From Verrucomicrobiota bacterium (GTDB taxonomy: Bacteria; Verrucomicrobiota; Kiritimatiellia; CAIQIC01; JAGNIJ01): a DNA stretch of 64,000 nucleotides. Below are positions 2,361 to 33,164 of the stretch, piece after piece. The DNA lies in assembly GCA_043803015.1 (NCBI GenBank), contig JAZDKK010000023.1, forward strand, positions 20,946 through 84,945, given 5' to 3'. The position numbers and the translations under genes were made by a program. Position 1 is the stretch's first letter. Each line of letters begins with the position of its first letter. The notes beneath the pieces are model-generated. The model saw nothing but the letters and a program-made list of their open reading frames with translations, did no database searches and was not told the DNA's origin.

Positions 2361-2875
2361 CTCGCACAACGGATTCAACGTCCAACATCCAACTCTCAAC
2401 GTCCAACGTTCAACGGGACGCCAAACGTGCGCCCGAGAATAGCATTACTGCTTGGGTTTTCTAGCTGTTTTGATGGAAGAGACAAAGATTGCGATCAACT
2501 CATCTGTTTCCGTGAGGAGGCCGTCGAGTCTCGACACCGGCTTCAGCAGAGGCACCCGCTTACACAGCCGGAGCCACCGGTAGGACTCGCGCAACTCCTT
2601 GAGGCAGACTTTTATCTTGTGGATGAAGTCACTGCGCGACTCCGCCGCCTGGGCCTCGCCATGATTCGGCAGGGGCGAGGTGCCGGACCTCAGCAGCTGG
2701 TTGGCCACGTGATTCCCCGCCCGCGTCGAAGGCAATGCTTCAACCAGCCGGATGATCCTTGCGGCGTATTCGAGCAGGCGTTCCTCGAGGTCGAACTTCC
2801 GGACCGATTTCATGCTCCCCTCCTCGTTCGATGTTGGACGTTGGGCGTTGAGCGTTGGAAGTTCAATCCGTTCTA
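2361..2875. mobile_element. putative inverted-repeat-flanked mini-cassette carrying the four-helix-bundle gene
   Basis: An imperfect inverted repeat of ~50 bp sits at 2367-2417 and again in inverted orientation at 2820-2870. The left arm is AACGGATTCAACGTCCAACATCCAACTCTCAACGTCCAACG. Both arms are built from CAACG/TCCAAC 6-7-mers and exactly bracket the 369-bp gene. Confidence 0.4.
2445..2813 (-). CDS. four-helix-bundle protein (TIGR02436 family; formerly 23S rRNA intervening-sequence protein)
   Basis: 122-aa protein MKSVRKFDLEERLLEYAARIIRLVEALP..ANQLLRSGTS.. that matches the family signature; start is the ATG at 2811-2813. Confidence 0.8.
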   Translation of the reverse strand: MKSVRKFDLEERLLEYAARIIRLVEALPSTRAGNHVANQLLRSGTSPLPNHGEAQAAESRSDFIHKIKVCLKELRESYRWLRLCKRVPLLKPVSRLDGLLTETDELIAIFVSSIKTARKPKQ

Positions 2876-14511: not shown

Positions 14512-14961
14512 CTAGAAGCCGACGTAGCGCGCCGCATCCCCGAGCTTGGGCTGATCCATAGAGCCAGTCTGTTCGTTCCATCGATCGGGATTCCATAGTT
14601 CGAAACCGTCAAACGTGCCGACCATGACCACCTGGTTCACGAGTCCGGCGTAGTCGAGAAGATCGTCCTTGATGCGAATGCGGCCCTGGGAATCCCAGGG
14701 CACCAGATCGGAGCGAGAGGCGAGCGTGCGAGCGAGTTGCCGACCCTTAGTGTCGGCGATGGAGAGGTTGCGGAGTCTCTCCAGGCGACGGGTCATTTCT
14801 CGAGCGGGGTAAACGCACAGGCATTTGTCGTTGACTCCAGGGAGGACGAACAACCGCTTGGGCACGCCCGCCAACTCGCGCCAATCTGAAGGGATGGTTA
14901 ACCGTTTCTTGGAATCCAGGGAGTGCACATAGATATTGACGAACACGCCCTGCGCGGCCAT
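14512..14961 (-). CDS. mraZ: division/cell wall cluster transcriptional regulator MraZ
   Basis: 149 aa: MAAQGVFVNIYVHSLDSKKRLTIPSDWRE.. It has the duplicated MraZ (SpoVT/AbrB-like) halves, each with the DxxxR motif. Confidence 0.9.
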   Translation of the reverse strand: MAAQGVFVNIYVHSLDSKKRLTIPSDWRELAGVPKRLFVLPGVNDKCLCVYPAREMTRRLERLRNLSIADTKGRQLARTLASRSDLVPWDSQGRIRIKDDLLDYAGLVNQVVMVGTFDGFELWNPDRWNEQTGSMDQPKLGDAARYVGF

Positions 14962-15330
14962 GTCGCCATTCTGAGTCTGTTCCCTGTCCTCCACTATAGT
15001 TACCTCCTGCGACACTTTAAAACACTTCGACCCACCTCTTGTCAACAGCTTTTGAACATTTTTTTCTTCCAAGATGCCGCCGGAAGGGGCACGTTTGCCC
15101 GGAAACGCGGGGAATATGGAGGAACTATTAACAGGGAGGTGCACGACCTGACGGATTGGCGTCCCGGACCCGCTGTCCCCCACCAGGCCCCACACGTATT
15201 TGACACTCTTTTCGTCCACCATGTCCGCCGCGGTCATCCGCCTTCGCCAAGAGGCTACGGCGGACAAGCCGTCCGCGGCTGCAACTCATCGACATCGACA
15301 ACCAATTCATTTCATCACGGAGTCACGACC
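14962..15330. promoter_or_regulatory. divergent promoter region (dcw cluster / SIMPL gene)
   Basis: This 369-bp gene-free interval lies between the mraZ start and the SIMPL gene start. It is AT-enriched around 15040-15070. It contains a copy of the mini-element CGCCTTCGCCAAGAGGCTACGGCGG (15238-15262). Confidence 0.35.
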
Positions 15331-17326: not shown

Positions 17327-17332
17327 GTCCTG

Positions 17333-17370
17333 CTCGCTCTCGTTCTCGATCTCGTTCTCGATCTCGAGGA
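17333..17370. repeat. hexamer-periodic (CTCGNN)n repeat downstream of the aminopeptidase gene
   Basis: CTCGCTCTCGTTCTCGATCTCGTTCTCGATCTCGAG, the same family as 18402-18472, 24341-24375 and 33098-33160. Confidence 0.5.
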
Positions 17371-17483
17371 TCGCCGCAAAGAGGCTCAAGATGCACAAGG
17401 AGTGGACCTGCGGTCCGTCCGTTCACCCTCTTGTGACTCTTGCCTGCCCTGCGAAGCCTTGGCGAAGCAGGGCGCCTCTTTGT

Positions 17484-17541
17484 GGCCATCCTGGCCTTTC
17501 CGTTGCCCCTTGCGATCTCTGCGTTCTCTTGCGGCGATTCC
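17484..17541. repeat. intergenic repeat family X copy (TTGCGATCTCTGCGTTCTCTTGCGGCGATTCC core)
   Basis: Near-identical cores sit at 18551-18610 and 24216-24262, all in the same orientation. The 17395-17430 segment shares the GGAGTGGACC head. Confidence 0.5.
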
Positions 17542-17614
17542 TTTTCCGGCGAAGCCGGGCTCGTCATCATCGTTTCTGGTTTGCGCTCCGCGCGCGGACC
17601 GCTAGGATGGCGGC

Positions 17615-18400: not shown

Positions 18401-18401
18401 T

Positions 18402-18472
18402 CGGCCTCGGCCTCGGACTCGGCCTCGAAGCGCCCAGGAAATCGAGGCCGAGACCGAGTACGAGACCGAGGG
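18402..18472. repeat. hexamer-periodic (CCTCGG/CTCGNN)n hairpin after the thioredoxin-like gene
   Basis: The left arm CGGCCTCGGCCTCGGACTCGGCCTCG and the right arm CGAGGCCGAGACCGAGTACGAGACCGAGG form an imperfect ~27-bp stem with a 15-nt loop, right after the stop at 18398-18400. Confidence 0.5.
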
Positions 18473-18550
18473 AACAACTTCCCTGTCCCTCCCAACCTCC
18501 GAGGAAGACCAACCGCGGATTTCGCGGATTGCACGGATAGGTAATGCGGA

Positions 18551-18610
18551 GTGGACCTCTGGTCCTTCCGTTTGCCCTTTGCGCTCTCTGCGTTCTCTCG
18601 CGGCAATTCC
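18551..18610. repeat. intergenic repeat family X copy
   Basis: GTGGACCTCTGGTCCTTCCGTTTGCCCTTTGCGCTCTCTGCGTTCTCTCGCGGCAATTCC, compared with 17484-17541 and 24216-24262. Confidence 0.5.
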
Positions 18611-18679
18611 TCTTTCGGCGAAGGCGCGAAGGAATAAGGGAAGGCGAACCGCGGACTTGTCCGCGGTGGCGGATTTCCT

Positions 18680-18727
18680 CGAAGCAGATGCTTCGCATCG
18701 CTTCGGGGCACGGCACGGATTTCACGG
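18680..18727. repeat. left boundary inverted repeat of the low-GC island
   Basis: CGAAGCAGATGCTTCGCATCGCTTCGGGGCACGGCACGGATTTCACGG matches the reverse complement of 24143-24189 at ~45 of 50 positions. The related segment 18525-18560 matches the reverse complement of 24110-24155. Confidence 0.5.
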
Positions 18728-18800
18728 GCGCCTGCGATCTGCCCACCTCGCACGCCTAATTTGCAACTCAATCACCGGCCCCGTTTTGGAGACTGCTATT

Positions 18801-19688
18801 CTAATTCTCCTTCAAGCTCTTCTCGTACTGGATGAACTCGTCTGATTCGAGGATCTCCCGGAGGTAGGACGTCGGTACGACAAGGGAGATCTTCCCCCCG
18901 GTTGCGTCAGACAACCCACCGCTGAGGATGCCGACGAAATGAAGCTCTTCTCCGCCCTTCATCCGCTGTCCGGCGATACTAACGTTCGACATGATGTCTT
19001 CAGTGTAGAACACAGGAGCTCCGCTGTATCCCTGGGCGAGAGCCTGATCGAGAAGGATGAAGAGAAGTTCAGATGATACGTTCGGGTTATCTACCGATGT
19101 AAGCCTGCTTGCTATACGAGTTTCCTTTGCCAATGGGCTCAGGTTCTGTTGAACACCTTGTCCCAAGGGAAACCCCAAAACATATGCTGCTGTCAGTAGG
19201 GGAATCTCCTTCTTCTGCTGCGGGAAGAGGTCCTCGCCAATCACTATTTGTTCGGAATCCGTTGGGTAGCAGAGTGGGTGAATGGAGATGTCGGCTTTCG
19301 GGTGATGAAACCATCTTGCCCCTTTGATGATCTGTTGTTGCGAAATCCACTCAAACGTGAGGCTCGTGCTCTTGCCCCCAGAGAGATTCATAACGATCTC
19401 TGCTTTGGCTGAAAGGGCCTTGGCGACATGCTTTGCGGTGACGAGGTAGTCACTTCCATGATATCGGATTATGAGTCCTGATCCTGACATCACGTCCAGT
19501 TTCGGCTCCAGTTTCTCCGTTTCAGGATCGCGGTACCAGACTTCGACTTGCTTGCCACCTTTCATCTCGATCGACTGGGATCGCTGGCGCAAGAACACGA
19601 CGGTCTTGCTTAGGCTATCGATTGAAATCGCGTAGGCAGTCGCATGAAGTGAAAGACCTGCAAACAGATAGAGCAAGAGTCGTTTCAT
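18801..19688 (-). CDS. secreted trypsin-like (S1 family) serine peptidase
   Basis: The start is MKRLLLYLFAGLSLHATAYA (signal peptide). There is a His motif VTAKHVA and a Ser motif GYSGAPVF (GDSGGP-like). Local GC is ~50%. Confidence 0.7.
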   Translation of the reverse strand: MKRLLLYLFAGLSLHATAYAISIDSLSKTVVFLRQRSQSIEMKGGKQVEVWYRDPETEKLEPKLDVMSGSGLIIRYHGSDYLVTAKHVAKALSAKAEIVMNLSGGKSTSLTFEWISQQQIIKGARWFHHPKADISIHPLCYPTDSEQIVIGEDLFPQQKKEIPLLTAAYVLGFPLGQGVQQNLSPLAKETRIASRLTSVDNPNVSSELLFILLDQALAQGYSGAPVFYTEDIMSNVSIAGQRMKGGEELHFVGILSGGLSDATGGKISLVVPTSYLREILESDEFIQYEKSLKEN

Positions 19689-19790
19689 ATGGTACTTCCT
19701 TTGTGTATCGTGTTGTCTTCCCAACAATGCGGCTGAGTTTCGTTTCTTCCGCCGCGGAAAAAACACAGACTCCAGCCGCTGGTCGGAGGC

Positions 19791-20300
19791 TCAATTCTCC
19801 CCGCCAACAAGCGACACACTGCGTCCGCGAACAACCAAGGCTTTAGATCCCTTGTTTCTTGCGGCTAGTTCCGCCGCGTCTTTGCAGGCGTTCGTTTTAT
19901 CATCAAGGGGTTCGGGCACATCAGGCGCGAAATATTCAAGCGAGTATGCCGTGAGTGCCGGCTTGTCGATCTCATCCGTTTTCACTTCGATAATCCACTC
20001 GCATTCGCTTCGAGATTTGTAGCCGCTCTGCTGTTTGAATGTGTCCGTGCCGTAGTACTTCTGGCCAGCTGAATCTGTGACTTCAAAGGCGGACTTGAGG
20101 GTGCCAAAAAATTGGACGCCGTATTGAGTTGTTTTGACAGTGATCAGATACACCCTCTTACCCGCTGCATCTTTCCCGAGGTTTCGAGAAACCGATCCGA
20201 TATTGGCATGGGCCTTCGACGCGGCGATTGCGTCGCGGCAACACATGGTACCGACCAGGCAAACCACCAGACACGTAACGATAGTCGTCTTTGTCTCCAT
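19791..20300 (-). CDS. hypothetical lipoprotein
   Basis: METKTTIVTCLVVCLVGTMCC.. is a signal peptide with lipobox. RBS AGGAAAGGGG. The gene is low-GC. The longer ORF-track version, 19791..20489, runs into repeat A. Confidence 0.5.
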   Translation of the reverse strand: METKTTIVTCLVVCLVGTMCCRDAIAASKAHANIGSVSRNLGKDAAGKRVYLITVKTTQYGVQFFGTLKSAFEVTDSAGQKYYGTDTFKQQSGYKSRSECEWIIEVKTDEIDKPALTAYSLEYFAPDVPEPLDDKTNACKDAAELAARNKGSKALVVRGRSVSLVGGEN

Positions 20301-20353
20301 TTCGATCCCCTTTCCTGCAACGTCTGCCTTCAGCATCCGTAGTCTGGGGTAGT

Positions 20354-20632
20354 CCGGGGTCGAACCATAGCTTTCTCTAGAGCACCAACCACTTATGACT
20401 CCCAGAACCCACTTTTCACCCCTTACAGCTTCTTTTTCAGCCCGAAAATCGCTGCTAAGGCTCCCGTTCCTTGCGCAACACCCTCCCACCCGCGCCCTTG
20501 GGAGCTCAAGACGTGGCCGAAAAGAGCCTGTAAGCCCCCGTCTTAGCCCCTCTTGCCGTCGTAGGTCGTTGCCTGCCTAGACCGACCTGCTGCGCCTCGC
20601 CGAAGCCCCGGGCGAAGGCGGGTGGTCCAACC
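20354..20632. repeat. MITE-like repeat copy A (TIR CCGGGGTCG.ACC)
   Basis: Over 20375-20590 it shares ~85% identity with 22150-22365 (TCTAGAGCACCAACC..GCTCAAGACGTGGCCGAAAAGAGCCTGTAAGCCCCCGT..). It sits immediately 5' of the gene starting at 20300. Confidence 0.6.
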
Positions 20633-20649
20633 TCGCCATCCTGTCTTCT

Positions 20650-21339
20650 TCATCCTTCAATCCACCATCTCTGAGGTCCTGGCAGGGGAAGTGAGCTCGC
20701 GATCTGGTTGACAGCTTCAGCTGCGGACCGCACCAATCCTTTCATCCAGTCAAAATGAAAACAGATCTGTTTGTAGTGCTCTGTGGATGGCGAGGACTCG
20801 GTCACGTTTACATAGCTGACATTTGCCTTCCTGTCGGTCATGGGTCTGGAAGTGGCGAACTTGCCGAGCGAGTAGTTGTGGACAAGGCCGCAACGCGCTT
20901 CACGGTAGAGAAGGTGCGCGTAGCTGAATTGCCGCAATTGTTCCTTGGAGAGTTGGGGGCATTCTATGAGAAGGTCGTCTTCCATGCCGTCAGCGTCGTC
21001 ACCTGTAATAATCAACGCGTGATGCGGTGGTAGGTACTTCTGCCGGATTGAATCTGCGGCCTGTCGTTTGATGGGGTCTGTGTCGCGTGCGAATTCCTGA
21101 ACTAGCATCGCCGTGCTTATGAACTGCGTTTGGAGGGTTGGTTTGCAGTAGGTGACAAGGAGTTCAACGAAGCGCTTGCGATCGATTCTCTCGCCCGGCC
21201 AGACGAGCGAGGCGATTCCACTCAACACGGCAAGAAGTAGGATTACGGCCTCAGGGTAGCCTGCGTCGCAGGCTCCGTCGGCGAGTCTCTCTGCGATGCC
21301 GATGCGGTGCAGGGCGAATTTGTTGATCCAGTCATTCAT
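20650..21339 (-). CDS. hypothetical protein with a possible HEPN-like Rx4H motif (RCGLVH)
   Basis: 229 aa: MNDWINKFALHRIGIAERL.. It has no recognisable family. The HEPN suggestion rests only on the Rx4HxY pattern and the island context. Confidence 0.45.
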   Translation of the reverse strand: MNDWINKFALHRIGIAERLADGACDAGYPEAVILLLAVLSGIASLVWPGERIDRKRFVELLVTYCKPTLQTQFISTAMLVQEFARDTDPIKRQAADSIRQKYLPPHHALIITGDDADGMEDDLLIECPQLSKEQLRQFSYAHLLYREARCGLVHNYSLGKFATSRPMTDRKANVSYVNVTESSPSTEHYKQICFHFDWMKGLVRSAAEAVNQIASSLPLPGPQRWWIEG

Positions 21340-21349
21340 GTTTCCGCCT

Positions 21350-21456
21350 CCGGGGTCCTCCGGGGTCGGACCACAGGTTCCTCTAGAGCACCAACCAGTT
21401 ACAGTTCCCAGAACCCCGCTTAGCGTCCAAGTGGGGTTCGCCTTCTACGACCCCGG
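21350..21456. repeat. MITE-like repeat copy B (short form, ~107 bp)
   Basis: It starts CCGGGGTCCTCCGGGGTCGGACCACAGGTTCCTCTAGAGCACCAACCAG and ends CGACCCCGG. It sits immediately 5' of the gene starting at 21339. Confidence 0.55.
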
Positions 21457-21506
21457 CAGGAAACGCAGACTTCAGACACAAGATCGAGCCTTGGTCTGGC
21501 TAACGC

Positions 21507-21710
21507 CTAGGCGTGGAAGAACTCGATCAGTTCTTCCCAGCTCTTCCTCACGCCGTTTCCTCTACGCGTCCGGCCAGCGCACCACTCGATTGTGGCCCTG
21601 CCGATTCGGAGGTCACCTAGGTGTTTGTTCTGGCCGTCGTACACATCCAGTTCAATGCCGTTGTTCCCAATCTCCATACTAACCTGGAACTCCTTCACGC
21701 TAACCTTCAT
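21507..21710 (-). CDS. hypothetical small protein (67 aa)
   Basis: MKVSVKEFQVSMEIGNNGIELDVYDGQNKHLGDLRIGRATIEW.. It may be co-transcribed with 21808..22080. The start position is within +/-1 nt by my reading. Confidence 0.35.
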   Translation of the reverse strand: MKVSVKEFQVSMEIGNNGIELDVYDGQNKHLGDLRIGRATIEWCAGRTRRGNGVRKSWEELIEFFHA

Positions 21711-21807
21711 GTTATCCTCCCTGCTTCGTCGCTTGAACGTTACGGGCGGGCCGGCCGCAAGACCCGTTCGATGGCAGCCTTCACTCGCCCCGTGGCCCGC
21801 ACGTCAA

Positions 21808-22080
21808 CTATCTCTTCTTGGGGCGACCGGGGCGATTATGCGGGACGAGCCGCTTGACTTGGCTGAAGCCTTGGTCAAGTTGTTCGAACGCCTGCCGGGC
21901 GCCATCCTTCCTCCCTTGAATGTACACGGCTTGCATGATCTGGGCGAGTTTGACGCCTTCGTACAAACTGGCATTCCTGACAATGTCCTCTACGGCTTGC
22001 ACCAAACGCCTCCCGGCGTACAGCGTTAGCTCAGTGGTTGCCAATGCGACTTTGACGGTCTTGAAACCGCGTTTGCCCAT
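21808..22080 (-). CDS. hypothetical small protein (90 aa), possibly an RHH/antitoxin-like DNA-binding protein
   Basis: MGKRGFKTVKVALATTELTLYAGRRLVQAVEDIV.. RBS GGAAAGGAGAG. The antitoxin idea comes only from its size and position upstream of a second small ORF. Confidence 0.4.
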   Translation of the reverse strand: MGKRGFKTVKVALATTELTLYAGRRLVQAVEDIVRNASLYEGVKLAQIMQAVYIQGRKDGARQAFEQLDQGFSQVKRLVPHNRPGRPKKR

Positions 22081-22104
22081 GATAGCTCTCCTTTCTTCTC
22101 GCGT

Positions 22105-22384
22105 CCGGGGTCGGACCACCCGCCTTCGCCAGAGGCTACGGCGGGCACGACAGGTTGCTCTAGAGCACCAACCAGTTACAACTCCCAGAACCCCGCTTTT
22201 CACCCCTTACAGCCTCTTTTTCGGCCCGAGAACTGGCCGCAAGACTCCCGTTCCTCAGGCAGCACCGCCGCTCACGCCCTTAGAAGCTCAAGACGTGGCC
22301 GAAAAGAGCCTGTAAGCCCCCGTTTTGGCCCTTTTGCCGTCGTAAGTCGTTGGCTCCCTAGACAGACCTGTGGTCCGACCCCGG
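22105..22384. repeat. MITE-like repeat copy C (full form, with terminal inverted repeats)
   Basis: The left end is CCGGGGTCGGACCACC.. and the right end is ..CCTGTGGTCCGACCCCGG. A nested ~30-bp insert, CCGCCTTCGCCAGAGGCTACGGCGGGCACG, lies in the left TIR. It sits immediately 5' of the gene starting at 22080. Its right TIR encodes the last 8 codons of the 22358..23092 gene. Confidence 0.6.
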
Positions 22385-23092
22385 CAAAACACCTTGTTTC
22401 TCTGGCATGGCTTTCAAGTACTCGTCCGACTGAATCACGAGATCGATCCAGTTGACTGTCATGTTCACGAGTGCCTTGAGATCCCTGAGATCCTTCTCTT
22501 CCCATTTTCTCGTGTAGTGCGTTTCATCATTCCCTAACCATGCGGCACGCTTCGCGCAGTGCTTGATGCGATCTTCGTCAATGAACTGCTCGATGCATGT
22601 GGCAAGAAATGCCTTGGCCACCGCCGCAGCCTTTGATGCATCGCTTCTGAACTTATAGTGGATGATGAAGTCCTTAATCAGGAACTCTAGCGACTTGCGA
22701 TATCCCGGACCGGCAATCTGGTCCAGGCCGTTTTCCTCGGCCACGAGCGACTGGTTGTATGTCGTGCAGAAGACAGGGGAGAGCTTGGCAACCGCGTCGG
22801 GGAACGTCACGGCGTTCGCGGCGCGGAGTATCGTTGTTTCCACGAGATTGCACATAGCGTTCTGGACGGAGGTGCTGCGGGTATTGTAGGCGGCGATGAA
22901 CATCTCCTTGCAATCGTCAGCGGGACATATGAAGGAGACGCGGATCTTGTGATCTCCTTCGCTCAGGTAGTGCCCGATAATGGGTTGTGGCTTCACGGAT
23001 GTCTGGCATGCAGGGCACGTGTCGGGAAACTTGTTGATGCTGATGATGTGCTGCTGTCCCGTTTCATCCACGGCTGTGATTTGGTGCGGCAT
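22358..23092 (-). CDS. zinc-finger plus DUF4145-type (HEPN-superfamily) protein, candidate abortive-infection/defence component
   Basis: The N-terminus has CPAC..CPADDC. The C-terminus has ..DRIKHCAKRAAWLGNDETHY.. which fits the DUF4145 R..GN...H signature. Confidence 0.55.
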   Translation of the reverse strand: MPHQITAVDETGQQHIISINKFPDTCPACQTSVKPQPIIGHYLSEGDHKIRVSFICPADDCKEMFIAAYNTRSTSVQNAMCNLVETTILRAANAVTFPDAVAKLSPVFCTTYNQSLVAEENGLDQIAGPGYRKSLEFLIKDFIIHYKFRSDASKAAAVAKAFLATCIEQFIDEDRIKHCAKRAAWLGNDETHYTRKWEEKDLRDLKALVNMTVNWIDLVIQSDEYLKAMPEKQGVLPGSDHRSV

Positions 23093-23152
23093 GTTCTGGT
23101 TCTCCTGGAGCTAACGTCAAGAATCACCGTGCCCTGAACCTGCGCAGCAGGT

Positions 23153-23419
23153 TCAGGGCACCGTGGATTCTCTGGTTCGGCCGTGTTTGGTCTCGAAGGA
23201 TCTGAATCTTGACTTCCCCTCCTTGCGCAAGGACGCCAATTCCTTCTCAAGCCACGCGATCTGTGCGTCGAGTTCCTCGTAAGTCACACACTCGGCGCCG
23301 AGTAAGGTGTGGCGACCTTCCGTGAATCGGCATTTCAGACGAATGTGGGCGCGGGGTCGGCCGGGGAGATCGCCTTTACGTGGGGTTTGAAACAACAAGC
23401 CGAAGTATAGCGTCCTCAT
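23153..23419 (-). CDS. hypothetical small protein (88 aa)
   Basis: MRTLYFGLLFQTPRKGDLPGRPRAHIRLK.. Its start overlaps the upstream membrane-protein stop (ATGA at 23416-23419). Confidence 0.35.
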   Translation of the reverse strand: MRTLYFGLLFQTPRKGDLPGRPRAHIRLKCRFTEGRHTLLGAECVTYEELDAQIAWLEKELASLRKEGKSRFRSFETKHGRTRESTVP

Positions 23420-23847
23420 TCGTTCCTCCTTCTGATGGCGCTTCGCACAACTTCTGCGAGAAGCAGCAACAATCCCACTGACAAGGTGATCCAGCCTCTC
23501 CCCCATTCGGCACCTTGGTCGGCAATCTTCGCAAATGATGCGACAAACCGGTCACTGGCATTTGCCAATCCGAGCACTCGGTGGGCGGCTGCGTGGTAGC
23601 TGAAGATGGCCCACGCAAAACCCCCGAAGGCAAGAAGACAAAGTGGTCCGGCGATGCGTTCTCGGCCGGTAAACCAGAAGTAGAACGAGAGAACGCCCAC
23701 GGCTGAGAGGAAGAGCGCGCAGAAGGGATCTAATGTCCAGAGGACTGTCCCACCAAAAAGGGCATGCTCTTCTACCCTAATCCGCGGTGCGAGCGCGAGG
23801 ATGACCGATCCGATGAGCCCGAGACCATGCGTTTGTTCTTCTGGCAT
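23416..23847 (-). CDS. hypothetical membrane protein (3-4 transmembrane helices)
   Basis: 143 aa with hydrophobic segments IGSVILALA, LWTLDPFCALFLSAVGVLSFYFWF, LCLLAFGGFAWAIF and ITLSVGLLLLLA. Confidence 0.5.
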   Translation of the reverse strand: MPEEQTHGLGLIGSVILALAPRIRVEEHALFGGTVLWTLDPFCALFLSAVGVLSFYFWFTGRERIAGPLCLLAFGGFAWAIFSYHAAAHRVLGLANASDRFVASFAKIADQGAEWGRGWITLSVGLLLLLAEVVRSAIRRRNE

Positions 23848-24142
23848 CTTTGTTCTCCTGCAGAACAGTTTGCATTACTCAGTTAGGTTCACGCTTCCCT
23901 ATCCCTGCCGAATCCGGTGCCAGGCCAACCGTTGCCTATCCTGGCTGAGGTTGTCTTCCCCTCCTGCCGCGATCCGGATGCAGTCCGCCGTAGCGGGGGC
24001 GAGTATAGCGGGAGGGAGGGAAGCGCGCAATGCGCGCTTCAGGTTCAGAGTTCAAGGTTCAACCCGCCTACGGCGGGCAAGCATCGAACTAGGAAGCAGG
24101 CGCGTAGAAAGGAGGATCGGAGGTCCACCCCATGTTACCTAT

Positions 24143-24189
24143 CCGTGTAATCCGCGCTGTGCCCTGAAGCGATGCGAAGCATCTGCTTC
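24143..24189. repeat. right boundary inverted repeat of the low-GC island
   Basis: It is the reverse complement of 18680-18727 (CGAAGCAGATGCTTCGCATCGCTTC core plus CGGATT.CACGG tail). Confidence 0.5.
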
Positions 24190-24215
24190 GGGGTAATCCG
24201 CGGTTAGGCTTTTCC

Positions 24216-24262
24216 GGTCTGTCCGTTAACCTTGCGATCTTTGCGATCTTTTGCGGCAATCC
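24216..24262. repeat. intergenic repeat family X copy
   Basis: GGTCTGTCCGTTAACCTTGCGATCTTTGCGATCTTTTGCGGCAATCC. Confidence 0.45.
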
Positions 24263-24340
24263 GGGGCCGTCCGTTAGCGCAGGCAGGCTCTTCTTGTGGG
24301 TGATCTGAGTGTTCTGTGGGCTCTCTTCACTTGTCCTTTC

Positions 24341-24375
24341 GAGCACGAGGCCGAGAACGAGGCCGAGAACGAGCT
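24341..24375. repeat. hexamer-periodic repeat (reverse-complement orientation of the CTCGTT family)
   Basis: GAGCACGAGGCCGAGAACGAGGCCGAGAACGAGCT. Confidence 0.45.
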
Positions 24376-24434
24376 GAGCAATCTGCGTGTTCTGTGGGCC
24401 CCTCTTCGGCTGTCCGCGGCGGCCGGTTCGCGGT

Positions 24435-33053: not shown

Positions 33054-33097
33054 GTAATCGTTCTCGCTTGCCCGCCGCAGCCTTGGCGGAGGCGGGT

Positions 33098-33160
33098 TCT
33101 CGATCTCGTGCTCGTTCTCGGGTGCTGCGATTACGAGAACGACAACGAGAGCGAGAACGA
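33098..33160. repeat. hexamer-periodic hairpin between the convergent PEBP and fmdB genes (probable bidirectional terminator)
   Basis: The left arm is CTCGATCTCGTGCTCGTTCTCG and the right arm is CGAGAACGACAACGAGAGCGAGAACG. Confidence 0.5.
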
Positions 33161-33164
33161 TTGT

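What the first reader, a model, noticed from the sequence alone, without database searches (positions are those of the whole stretch)
18401..24434. Low-GC island (~50% versus ~68% GC) encoding HEPN-type proteins, a secreted S1 protease, a lipoprotein and small proteins, bounded by inverted mosaic repeats: a candidate defence or toxin island
Between the thioredoxin-like gene and metG, the GC content drops sharply across 18.8-23.85 kb. All eight genes are on the minus strand and none has a housekeeping function.

The gene products are:
- a trypsin-like serine peptidase with signal peptide;
- a lipoprotein;
- a 229-aa protein with an Rx4H (RCGLVH) motif;
- two small proteins of 90 aa and 67 aa in tandem, laid out like a toxin-antitoxin pair;
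- a zinc-finger plus DUF4145 (HEPN-superfamily) protein;
- an 88-aa protein translationally coupled to a membrane protein.

DUF4145/HEPN proteins are RNase components of abortive-infection and toxin-antitoxin systems. Each intergenic gap holds a conserved MITE-like repeat.

The island is bounded by sequences that are inverted copies of each other (18680-18727 versus 24143-24189, and 18525-18560 versus 24110-24155). The combination looks like a horizontally acquired, possibly still mobile, defence module of an undescribed type.
Basis: partly seen in the sequence, partly recalled or inferred. Interest (0 to 1): 0.75.

Follow-up and report, generated by a model that had tools for sequence, protein, structure and literature searches.

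The report
Foreign gene islet with two HEPN RNases
A 5-kb stretch of foreign, lower-GC DNA in an uncultured Kiritimatiellota/Verrucomicrobiota genome is a patchwork of independently travelling genes, two of which look like phage-defence RNases (one built like the known RAZR protein, one from an uncurated family), so it is a fairly ordinary small defence islet rather than a new multi-gene system.

Summary
The low-GC island is real. Its core (18801-23847) is 55.4% GC against 65.8% elsewhere, and its genes have GC3 of 0.58-0.74 against 0.82-0.95. The nearest available relative has a GH31 gene in the same metG-M29 slot.

The "single undescribed module" reading fails. In about 20 comparative loci no two island genes co-occur. 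The protease is an exported S1 enzyme that occurs as a solo gene in low-GC genomes. The "lipoprotein" has no canonical lipobox, and the toxin-antitoxin idea has no support.

The flanking inverted repeats are shuffled mosaic intergenic repeats, with a further copy outside the island. MITE-like elements fill 3 of 7 gaps. No integrase, tRNA or attC site was found.

The parts
18401..18800 (.). Left flank. Host-type (about 60% GC) mosaic intergenic repeats: a hexamer array at 18401-18470 and modules B (18523-18566), C (18551-18626) and A (18669-18727).
   Evidence: Module C and a neighbouring module are also present at 17399-17557, outside the island.
18801..19691 (-). Sec-exported S1 (trypsin-like) serine protease, 296 aa, 51.5% GC.
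   Evidence: Pfam Trypsin_2 3e-4; PADLOC PDC-S45 2.2e-11; phrog_7688 3e-15. At least 156 homologues. Signal peptide and H87/D133/S222 are conserved. Occurs as a solo gene between housekeeping genes in 37-45% GC genomes.
19791..20297 (-). 168-aa exported or N-terminally anchored protein of unknown function. The start may be at 20333. It is not a canonical lipoprotein.
   Evidence: ORF. No hit in Pfam, PADLOC, PHROGs or NCBIfam. The exact sequence with this start is not in the protein collection.
20343..20640 (-). MITE-like element, copy 1. It is 84% identical over 223 nt to copy 2. Its left inverted repeat is interrupted by a REP-like hairpin.
   Evidence: It has no stable overall fold (z = -0.07).
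20650..21339 (-). 229-aa member of an uncurated HEPN-like family, with R149-x4-H154.
21349..21462 (-). MITE-like element, copy 3. It is internally deleted, keeping 9 nt of the left end and about 70 nt of the right end.
21507..21710 (-). 67-aa orphan protein (present in the deposited NCBI annotation).
   Evidence: No family or relative found.
21808..22080 (-). 90-aa orphan protein (present in the deposited NCBI annotation).
   Evidence: No family or relative found.
22106..22384 (-). MITE-like element, copy 2, with complete terminal inverted repeats of about 43 nt (81%). A REP-like hairpin is nested in its right end. Its left end overlaps the last 27 nt of the upstream gene.
   Evidence: It folds as one long hairpin (z = -5.3). 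The gene's C-terminal extension relative to its family is seen.
22358..23092 (-). 244-aa protein with a zinc ribbon and a DUF4145 (HEPN) domain, the same architecture as RAZR/PD-T7-4.
23129..23161 (-). Hairpin with a 15-bp stem (10 G-C pairs) between the membrane/88-aa unit and the zinc-ribbon-DUF4145 gene; terminator-like.
   Evidence: (I14)
23153..23419 (-). 88-aa ORF, absent from the deposited NCBI annotation but plausible. It has a GGAGG ribosome-binding site and an ATGA overlap with the membrane gene.
23416..23847 (-). 143-aa multi-pass membrane protein of unknown function.
   Evidence: no family
23848..24434 (.). Right flank. Mosaic intergenic repeats: B' (24113-24156) and A' (24143-24201) inverted, C (24216-24260) direct, and a hexamer array at 24340-24373.

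Best explanation
This is a small, horizontally acquired accessory islet. It sits in a variable slot between metG and an M29 aminopeptidase gene of an uncultured Kiritimatiellota/Verrucomicrobiota bacterium. It is not one system but an accretion of independently distributed, mostly single-gene modules.

Two of the modules are probably stand-alone abortive-infection-type HEPN ribonucleases.
- The 244-aa zinc-ribbon-DUF4145 protein has the RAZR/PD-T7-4 architecture. By analogy (inferred), its variable zinc-ribbon domain senses a phage protein assembly and this activates non-specific RNA cleavage by the HEPN domain.
- The 229-aa protein belongs to an uncurated HEPN-like family with a nearly invariant R-x4-H motif. 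It is inferred to be an RNase toxin or effector, because its relatives sit in defence islands.

The remaining cargo is not demonstrably defensive. It comprises an exported S1 protease, an exported 168-aa protein, a membrane protein with an 88-aa ORF, and two orphan small proteins.

Three copies of a MITE-like element lie between the genes. One of them rewrote the 3' end of the RAZR-like gene. The edges of the islet are host-type mosaic (BIME-like) intergenic repeats, not transposon ends.

Shown here: composition, the family assignments, the predicted folds, motif conservation, the gene contexts and the lack of co-occurrence. Inferred: RNase activity, anti-phage function and the trigger.
For: - Foreign origin. 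GC is 55.4% against 65.8% and GC3 is 0.58-0.74 against 0.88-0.94. In the nearest relative, L001 (metG 75% identical, M29 83%), one GH31 gene of normal GC lies between metG and M29. The closest protease relatives (59-75% identical) sit in 37-45% GC contigs and match their GC.
- Independence of the modules. tblastn of all island proteins against all comparative loci finds only the gene that was used to fetch each locus. A strong hairpin separates two of the units.
Against: - No enzymatic or phage-resistance data exist for either family.
- No PADLOC model matches the 244-aa protein or any of 33 relatives.
- Its Arg-His spacing is R182-x9-H192, against R146-x7-H154 in E. coli RAZR.
- The PDB profile and Foldseek searches did not retrieve the RAZR entries.
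- Only one informative relative was available for the empty-site argument, and it is distant.
- Five of the eight ORFs remain without any assignment, so a functional link among some neighbours cannot be excluded. Candidate pairs are membrane protein plus 88-aa ORF, and 90-aa plus 67-aa proteins.
Confidence: 0.6

Rival explanations
1. The islet is the decayed remnant of a prophage or integrative element. What remains is its accessory ('moron' or lysogeny-module) cargo, after the integrase and structural genes were lost.
For: - The zinc-ribbon-DUF4145 family (phrog_1305) is typical of temperate-phage lysogeny modules.
- The protease hits phrog_7688.
- All genes are co-oriented and of lower GC.
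Against: - No integrase, transposase, tRNA, att-like direct repeat or phage structural gene is present in the island or the window (ORF list).
- The protease has no match in 50,697 phage records.
- The genes differ in GC (51.5-57%) and have unrelated distributions, which suggests several separate acquisitions.
Confidence: 0.15
2. One reading: the eight genes form one multi-gene defence or toxin system of an undescribed type, mobilised as a unit between inverted repeats.
For: - The genes are co-oriented and tightly packed, and two are HEPN-type.
- Inverted matches exist on both flanks.
Against: - No two island genes co-occur in about 20 comparative loci.
- A terminator-like hairpin and MITE insertions separate the genes.
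- The flank repeats are shuffled, partly in direct orientation, and also present outside the island.
Confidence: 0.07
3. The islet is an integron-like cassette array (a CALIN). The inter-gene repeats would be attC recombination sites and each gene a promoterless cassette.
For: - Co-oriented small genes are separated by similar imperfect inverted repeats in one orientation.
- PD-T7-4 is among the most frequent defence systems in sedentary chromosomal integrons (bioRxiv 10.1101/2024.07.02.601686).
Against: - There are no R''/R' (RYYYAAC...GTTRRRY) box pairs in the intergenic gaps. One pair was found, in the flank, against 0.38 expected by chance.
- The elements are 280-300 nt with 43-nt inverted ends, and the pairing extends about 30 nt beyond any AAC/GTT core. 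From memory, attC sites are 57-141 nt.
- Only 3 of 7 gaps carry an element.
- No tyrosine recombinase motif was found in the window.
Confidence: 0.03
4. The region is native and AT-richer, or it is a MAG assembly chimera, and no horizontal transfer is involved.
For: - Only one distant relative could be compared.
- The sequence is a metagenome-assembled genome.
Against: - The GC3 shift is gene-wide and sharp at both borders.
- The island is embedded in a 97.7-kb contig with host-type sequence on both sides.
- A REP-like hairpin nested in the MITE resembles a host copy at 15235-15266, 90.6% over 32 nt, which argues for residence in this genome.
- The nearest relative has a different gene in the slot.
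Confidence: 0.06

Closest known systems
RAZR (ring-activated zinc-finger RNase; PD-T7-4), Zhang et al., Nature 2026 (PMC13017515)
   Same: A single polypeptide with an N-terminal zinc-binding domain (four invariant Cys) and a C-terminal DUF4145-type HEPN domain with an invariant His. The size is similar, about 230 aa. The neighbours vary, as expected for a stand-alone gene. Relatives occur on prophages and mobile DNA.
   Different: - No PADLOC model matches it or any of 33 relatives.
- The zinc-ribbon domain is longer (about 95 aa against about 65 aa) and rich in beta-strands.
- The Arg-His spacing is x9 (R182...H192), not x7 (R146...H154).
- No direct sequence or structure match to RAZR could be obtained here.
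- The host is a PVC-group bacterium, and the gene's 3' end has been rewritten by a MITE.
Stand-alone or minimal HEPN abortive-infection and toxin proteins (AbiV, HEPN toxins of HEPN-MNT pairs, 'Esos' from Vibrio integrons)
   Different: It has no detectable sequence similarity to any curated HEPN family. It carries an extra C-terminal beta-hairpin plus helix. It has no MNT or other conserved partner. The family comprises only about 500 clusters at 50% identity.
Defence islands or islets in variable chromosomal hot spots
   Same: Lower GC, patchy distribution, a mix of unrelated small defence-type genes, and different content in the same slot in a relative.
   Different: It is very small (5 kb) and has no integrase or tRNA. 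More than half of the genes have no defence signature, and one is an exported protease.
MITEs and BIME/REP mosaic intergenic repeats
   Same: The internal elements are 115-300 nt, non-coding and end in inverted repeats of about 43 nt, with nested and deleted derivatives. The flanks are mosaics of short palindromic or hexamer modules in mixed orientation, like BIMEs.
   Different: No target-site duplication, cognate transposase or copy elsewhere in the 64 kb was seen. A 20-mer scan of metagenome contigs found only chance matches.
PADLOC candidate PDC-S45 (single-gene trypsin-like candidate)
   Same: It shares a trypsin-like fold and gives a partial HMM match of 2.2e-11 over positions 38-254 of 293.
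   Different: The whole protease family carries a Sec signal peptide and sits between housekeeping genes. PDC-S45 is itself only a candidate. For comparison, bona fide hits in the literature score about 1e-94.

Membership tests
RAZR / PD-T7-4 | N-terminal zinc-finger domain | tested here: met
   C26, C29, C56 and C61 are invariant in 33 relatives. There is a weak Zn-ribbon profile match to RPC10. The N-terminal part of the model is rich in beta-strands.
RAZR / PD-T7-4 | C-terminal DUF4145-type HEPN domain | tested here: met
RAZR / PD-T7-4 | Catalytic Arg and His (R146 and H154 in E. coli RAZR, spacing x7) | tested here: inconclusive
   H192 is invariant. R182 is present in 31 of 33 relatives, but at spacing x9. 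R132 is invariant elsewhere in the protein. No RAZR sequence was available for a direct alignment.
RAZR / PD-T7-4 | Recognised by the defence-system HMM library | tested here: not met
   No PADLOC v2.0.0 model matches at E of 0.1 or below for the window protein, or at 1 or below for 33 relatives. That PADLOC holds a PD-T7-4 model is from memory.
RAZR / PD-T7-4 | Abortive-infection RNase activated by ring-shaped phage proteins | not testable with these tools
   This needs phage challenge and biochemistry.
HEPN superfamily (229-aa protein) | Alpha-helical HEPN core fold | tested here: met
HEPN superfamily (229-aa protein) | Conserved R-x4-6-H motif | tested here: met
   R149 is 100% and H154 is 99% conserved in 122 representatives. 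Both are invariant in the 15-sequence alignment.
HEPN superfamily (229-aa protein) | Sequence-profile link to a curated HEPN family | tested here: not met
   No Pfam, NCBIfam, PADLOC or PHROG hit for the protein or for 10 relatives. A PDB profile search found nothing.
Integron cassette array / CALIN | attC sites (R''/R' boxes, 57-141 nt) between cassettes | tested here: not met
   There are no box pairs in the internal gaps. The elements are 115-300 nt with 43-nt inverted ends. No covariance-model test was possible.
Integron cassette array / CALIN | Integron integrase nearby | tested here: not met
   No tyrosine-recombinase motif was found in the six-frame translation of the 64 kb. The rest of the genome was not available.
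Classical genomic island | Deviant composition and absence from relatives | tested here: met
   for composition. Absence is shown in only one relative, at 75% metG identity.
Classical genomic island | tRNA target, integrase, flanking direct repeats | tested here: not met
   There is no tRNA in the window and no integrase motif. The flank repeats are mosaic and mixed in orientation.
MITE | Short non-coding element with terminal inverted repeats, in several copies | tested here: met
   Three copies are present. The inverted ends are about 43 nt and 81% matched. Copy 2 folds as a hairpin with z = -5.3.
MITE | Target-site duplication and a related autonomous element | tested here: not met
   No duplication is seen at the ends (read). 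There is no transposase in the window. The metagenome 20-mer scan gave only chance hits.
Type II toxin-antitoxin pair (90-aa and 67-aa proteins) | Match to known toxin or antitoxin families, and a tight operon | tested here: not met
   No family hit at E of 10 or below. The two genes are 97 nt apart. No relatives were found in the phage, plasmid or viral collections.
Bacterial lipoprotein (168-aa protein) | Lipobox [LVI][ASTVI][GAS]C after an n- and h-region | tested here: not met
   The N-terminus reads METKTTIVTCLVVCLVGTMCCRDAIAASKA and has no canonical lipobox (sequence, pattern from memory). An AxA signal-peptidase I site is more likely.

The most novel reading that the evidence does not exclude
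The 229-aa protein defines a previously unrecognised stand-alone HEPN immune effector family. The family has about 500 clusters and is absent from Pfam, PADLOC, NCBIfam and PHROGs. Through its invariant R-x4-H site it would act as a single-gene abortive-infection, or anti-plasmid, RNase. Occasional fusions, such as to the antitoxin-like DUF2442 domain, hint at how it is kept in check.
Probability: 0.4. Interest if true: 0.55.

Novelty: new variant of a known kind. Interest (0 to 1): 0.4.

Why it matters
- It places a protein with the architecture of RAZR, an abortive-infection RNase characterised in 2026, in a PVC-group bacterium. The protein's whole subfamily (at least 1750 members) is invisible to PADLOC. 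This suggests that defence annotation undercounts zinc-ribbon-DUF4145 proteins.
- It flags an uncurated HEPN-like family with clear defence-island neighbourhoods as a cheap, testable single-gene candidate.
- For genome-scanning practice, it shows that co-orientation, low GC and flanking inverted matches do not make a 'system'. Co-occurrence analysis dissolved the proposed module into independent parts.

Tried and rejected
- Exact-protein look-ups of the window's 244-aa and 229-aa proteins found no contig on record.
- Rfam, searched at E of 1 or below over 17-25 kb, gave only a spurious lncRNA hit. No tRNA or tmRNA was found.
- Viral-contig scans for the 229-aa family, the protease and the 67-aa and 90-aa proteins found nothing.
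- Plasmid and phage tblastn for the 229-aa, 90-aa and 67-aa proteins and the protease found no match.
- PDB sequence and profile searches for both HEPN candidates gave no significant hit, and RAZR entries 9Y9C and 9Y6U were not retrieved.
- I tested whether the 67-aa protein resembles the DUF2442 extension fused to one relative of the 229-aa protein. No alignment was found.
- The metagenome scan with the 20-mer core of the MITE returned three loci that match only over the 20-23 nt seed, which is chance level.
- A search for attC boxes gave nothing above shuffled expectation.
- I considered a conserved RNA structure in the repeats. Copy 2 folds only through its inverted ends and copy 1 does not fold better than shuffles, so a structured-RNA reading was rejected.
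- I considered that the repeat core was tRNA-derived, because of GGTTCGA-like strings. ARAGORN and Rfam give no support.
- The sigma-70 promoter scan found none in the island. This is uninformative for this phylum.

Full report
**Observation**

The composition trough is real. One-kilobase windows from 19 to 24 kb are 51-58% GC, while the rest of the window runs at 60-70%. The gene-bearing core, 18801-23847, is 55.4% GC against a background of 65.8%. Outside this locus, 1-kb windows have an sd of 2.3% and a minimum of 57.9%. The shift also appears in codon usage. Island ORFs have GC3 of 0.58-0.74, whereas metG, the M29 peptidase gene and the thioredoxin-like gene have 0.88-0.94. The thioredoxin-like gene is therefore host-like and is not part of the foreign segment. 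All ORFs lie on the minus strand as listed. Judged from consecutive locus tags and protein accessions, the deposited NCBI annotation of this MAG (a Verrucomicrobiota bacterium, locus tags V1873_01875 to V1873_01910) calls seven of them. The 88-aa ORF is not called, although it has a GGAGG ribosome-binding site and an ATGA overlap with the membrane gene.

**Source organism and the empty-site test**

The best metG relatives in 185,579 species representatives are Kiritimatiellia and Verrucomicrobiota MAGs at no more than 75% identity, so no close relative was available. Only the nearest one, L001, keeps the neighbourhood. There, metG is followed by a single 599-aa glycoside-hydrolase-like gene of normal GC and then by the M29 peptidase gene, which is 83% identical. 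The metG-M29 interval is therefore a variable slot, and the eight-ORF block is absent from the one informative relative. There is no tRNA in the window and no tyrosine-recombinase motif in any frame.

**The 244-aa protein (22358-23092)**

- Family matches. It matches PHROG 1305 over its full length (3.6e-36) and Pfam DUF4145 weakly (0.01, below the curated cut-off).
- Family size and conservation. The family has at least 1750 members. In 33 diverse relatives the four cysteines C26, C29, C56 and C61, the GxGxRKxLE motif (R132) and the WLGNDExH motif (H192) are invariant, and R182 is present in 31. 21 of the 33 relatives hit DUF4145 at or below 0.01.
- What is known of the family. DUF4145 is an established HEPN family with zinc-ribbon fusions (PMC3710099). 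The zinc-finger plus DUF4145 architecture is that of RAZR (PD-T7-4). RAZR is an abortive-infection RNase that assembles around ring-forming phage proteins through its zinc-finger domain and then cleaves RNA non-specifically. R146 and H154 are essential for its defence activity (PMC13017515).
- Gene contexts. Phage relatives of the window protein lie in lysogeny modules. In Streptococcus phage Spn1 the order is integrase, Abi gene, cI repressor, then this gene. In Aeribacillus phage AP45 it lies next to a NERD-domain gene, with a HicAB pair a few genes away. Bacterial relatives lie next to a RelA_SpoT-domain gene, or among small mobile-element-type ORFs a few genes from a methyltransferase-helicase gene pair.
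- Caveats. No PADLOC model matches it or its relatives. The Arg-His spacing is x9 rather than x7. I could not obtain a RAZR sequence or a structural match. I therefore file it as having the RAZR architecture and as a probable distant member, not as a proven orthologue.

**The 229-aa protein (20650-21339)**

- No curated library recognises it.
- The word-indexed search found only 15 relatives. A full HMM scan of 1.84 billion representatives found 493 clusters, 236 of them at or below 1e-30. Nearly all are 215-240 aa single-domain proteins. Ten longer members also lack Pfam hits.
R149 is conserved in 100% and H154 in 99% of 122 representatives.
- The neighbourhoods of its relatives are informative. 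One sits between Hachiman (HamA plus helicase) and integrase plus TIR-NB-ARC-WD40 genes (L086). One sits between hsdR and hsdS/hsdM of a type I R-M locus (L087). One sits beside caspase and DUF4384 genes (L089). One is fused to a DUF2442 domain in a planctomycete-type locus.
- I conclude that this is an uncurated HEPN-like family with a defence-island distribution. RNase activity and immunity are inferred, not shown.

**The protease (18801-19691)**

The catalytic H87, D133 and S222 are conserved in at least 95% of 113 relatives. A Sec-type signal peptide is present throughout the family. Relatives are solo genes wedged between housekeeping genes (hyp genes; trpF and topA; serS) in contigs of 37-45% GC, whose composition they match. 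Two conclusions follow. The window's copy, at 51.5% GC and 75% identical to a gene in a 45% GC contig, probably came from a lower-GC lineage. An exported enzyme is also an unlikely intracellular defence component. The PADLOC PDC-S45 match (2.2e-11) is a fold-level resemblance to a system that is only a candidate.

**The remaining ORFs**

The 168-aa protein has a hydrophobic N-terminus but no canonical lipobox, so the lipoprotein call is not supported. The 90-aa and 67-aa proteins are real enough to be annotated. They have no family and no relatives in the phage, plasmid or viral collections, and they are 97 nt apart. The toxin-antitoxin idea rests on size alone. The membrane protein and the 88-aa ORF are unassigned.

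**One system or many?**

tblastn of every island protein against all loci fetched for any of them finds only the gene that was used to fetch each locus. These loci comprise nine for the 229-aa family, five for the protease, and four bacterial plus two phage loci for the 244-aa family. A hairpin with a 15-bp stem separates the membrane/88-aa unit from the 244-aa gene. The genes also fall into slightly different GC classes, 51.5-52.5% and 54-57%. The island is therefore an accretion of independent modules, not a conserved multi-gene system.

**The repeats**

There are two unrelated classes.

- Flank repeats. The flanks at 18401-18750 and 24060-24375 are host-GC mosaics of short modules. However, their order is not mirror-symmetric, and module C is in direct orientation on both sides. 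Copies of two modules also lie at 17399-17557, between the M29 and Trx-like genes, and the CGAGAACGAG hexamer array recurs at 33.1 kb. They resemble BIME/REP-type intergenic mosaics, not transposon ends.
- Internal repeats. Three copies of a MITE-like element lie at 22106-22384, 20343-20640 and 21349-21462, all in the same orientation. Copy 2 has imperfect terminal inverted repeats of about 43 nt and folds as one long hairpin (z = -5.3). Copy 1 has a degenerate left end (z = -0.07). Copy 3 is internally deleted.
- Further details of the internal copies. A REP-like hairpin is nested in copy 2, and a mirrored version is nested in copy 1. It resembles a host sequence at 15235-15266. The left end of copy 2 supplies the last nine codons and the stop codon of the 244-aa gene. 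This explains that gene's C-terminal extension relative to its family.
- Tests that were negative. They occupy 3 of 7 gaps. No target-site duplication, transposase or copy elsewhere in the window was found, and the metagenome scan gave only chance seeds. An integron/attC reading was tested and rejected.

**Verdict**

The region is best described as a small horizontally acquired islet in a variable slot. It carries a protein with the RAZR architecture and a member of an uncurated HEPN-like family, plus unrelated cargo, and it is peppered with MITE-like elements. It is neither a coherent new defence module nor demonstrably mobile. The most useful product of this check is the 229-aa family as a testable single-gene defence candidate.

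Noticed in passing
window 22358-22384: The left inverted repeat of MITE-like copy 2 encodes the last nine codons and the stop codon of the zinc-ribbon-DUF4145 gene. This gives the protein a C-terminal tail (LPGSDHRSV) that most of its 32 aligned relatives lack.
   Followed up: partly
window 21349-21368 and 20343-20362: At the right end of two MITE-like copies the terminal ~10 nt are tandemly duplicated (ACCCCGGAGG ACCCCGGAGG; ACCCCGGACT ACCCCAGACT), directly upstream of the next gene's ribosome-binding site. The meaning is unknown.
   Followed up: no
window 15235-15266 and 22113-22144: A REP-like hairpin (CCGCCTTCGCCAGAGGCTACGGCGG) nested in the MITE has a 90.6% match over 32 nt upstream of the mraZ region. 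This suggests a host-resident short palindromic repeat family.
   Followed up: partly
window 17327-17366, 18401-18470, 24340-24373, 33093-33161: Arrays of the hexamer repeat CGAGAACGAG (and variants) occur at four sites on both strands. The three at this locus are intergenic.
   Followed up: partly
window 2368-2415 / 2825-2872: A 48-nt inverted repeat (79%) built of CAACG/TCCAAC-type short repeats brackets about 400 nt. It is a different repeat family from those at the island.
   Followed up: no
window 14516-14962 (minus strand): An ORF that by eye resembles MraZ lies in a second, milder GC dip (55-59% at 14.8-15.6 kb), next to an AT-rich stretch that may be a promoter. This was not checked with any tool.
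   Followed up: no
L083 8001-8891 (protein P0009): A relative of the 229-aa protein is fused at its N-terminus to a DUF2442 domain. From memory, this domain is otherwise known as the antitoxin-like partner of DUF4160. This is a possible clue to how the HEPN-like protein is regulated.
   Followed up: partly
L001 2188-3987: In the closest relative, the slot between metG and the M29 peptidase gene holds a 599-aa glycoside-hydrolase-like gene instead of the Trx-like gene plus the island.
   Followed up: yes
window 23153-23419: An 88-aa ORF with a GGAGG ribosome-binding site and an ATGA overlap with the upstream membrane gene is missing from the deposited NCBI annotation.
   Followed up: partly
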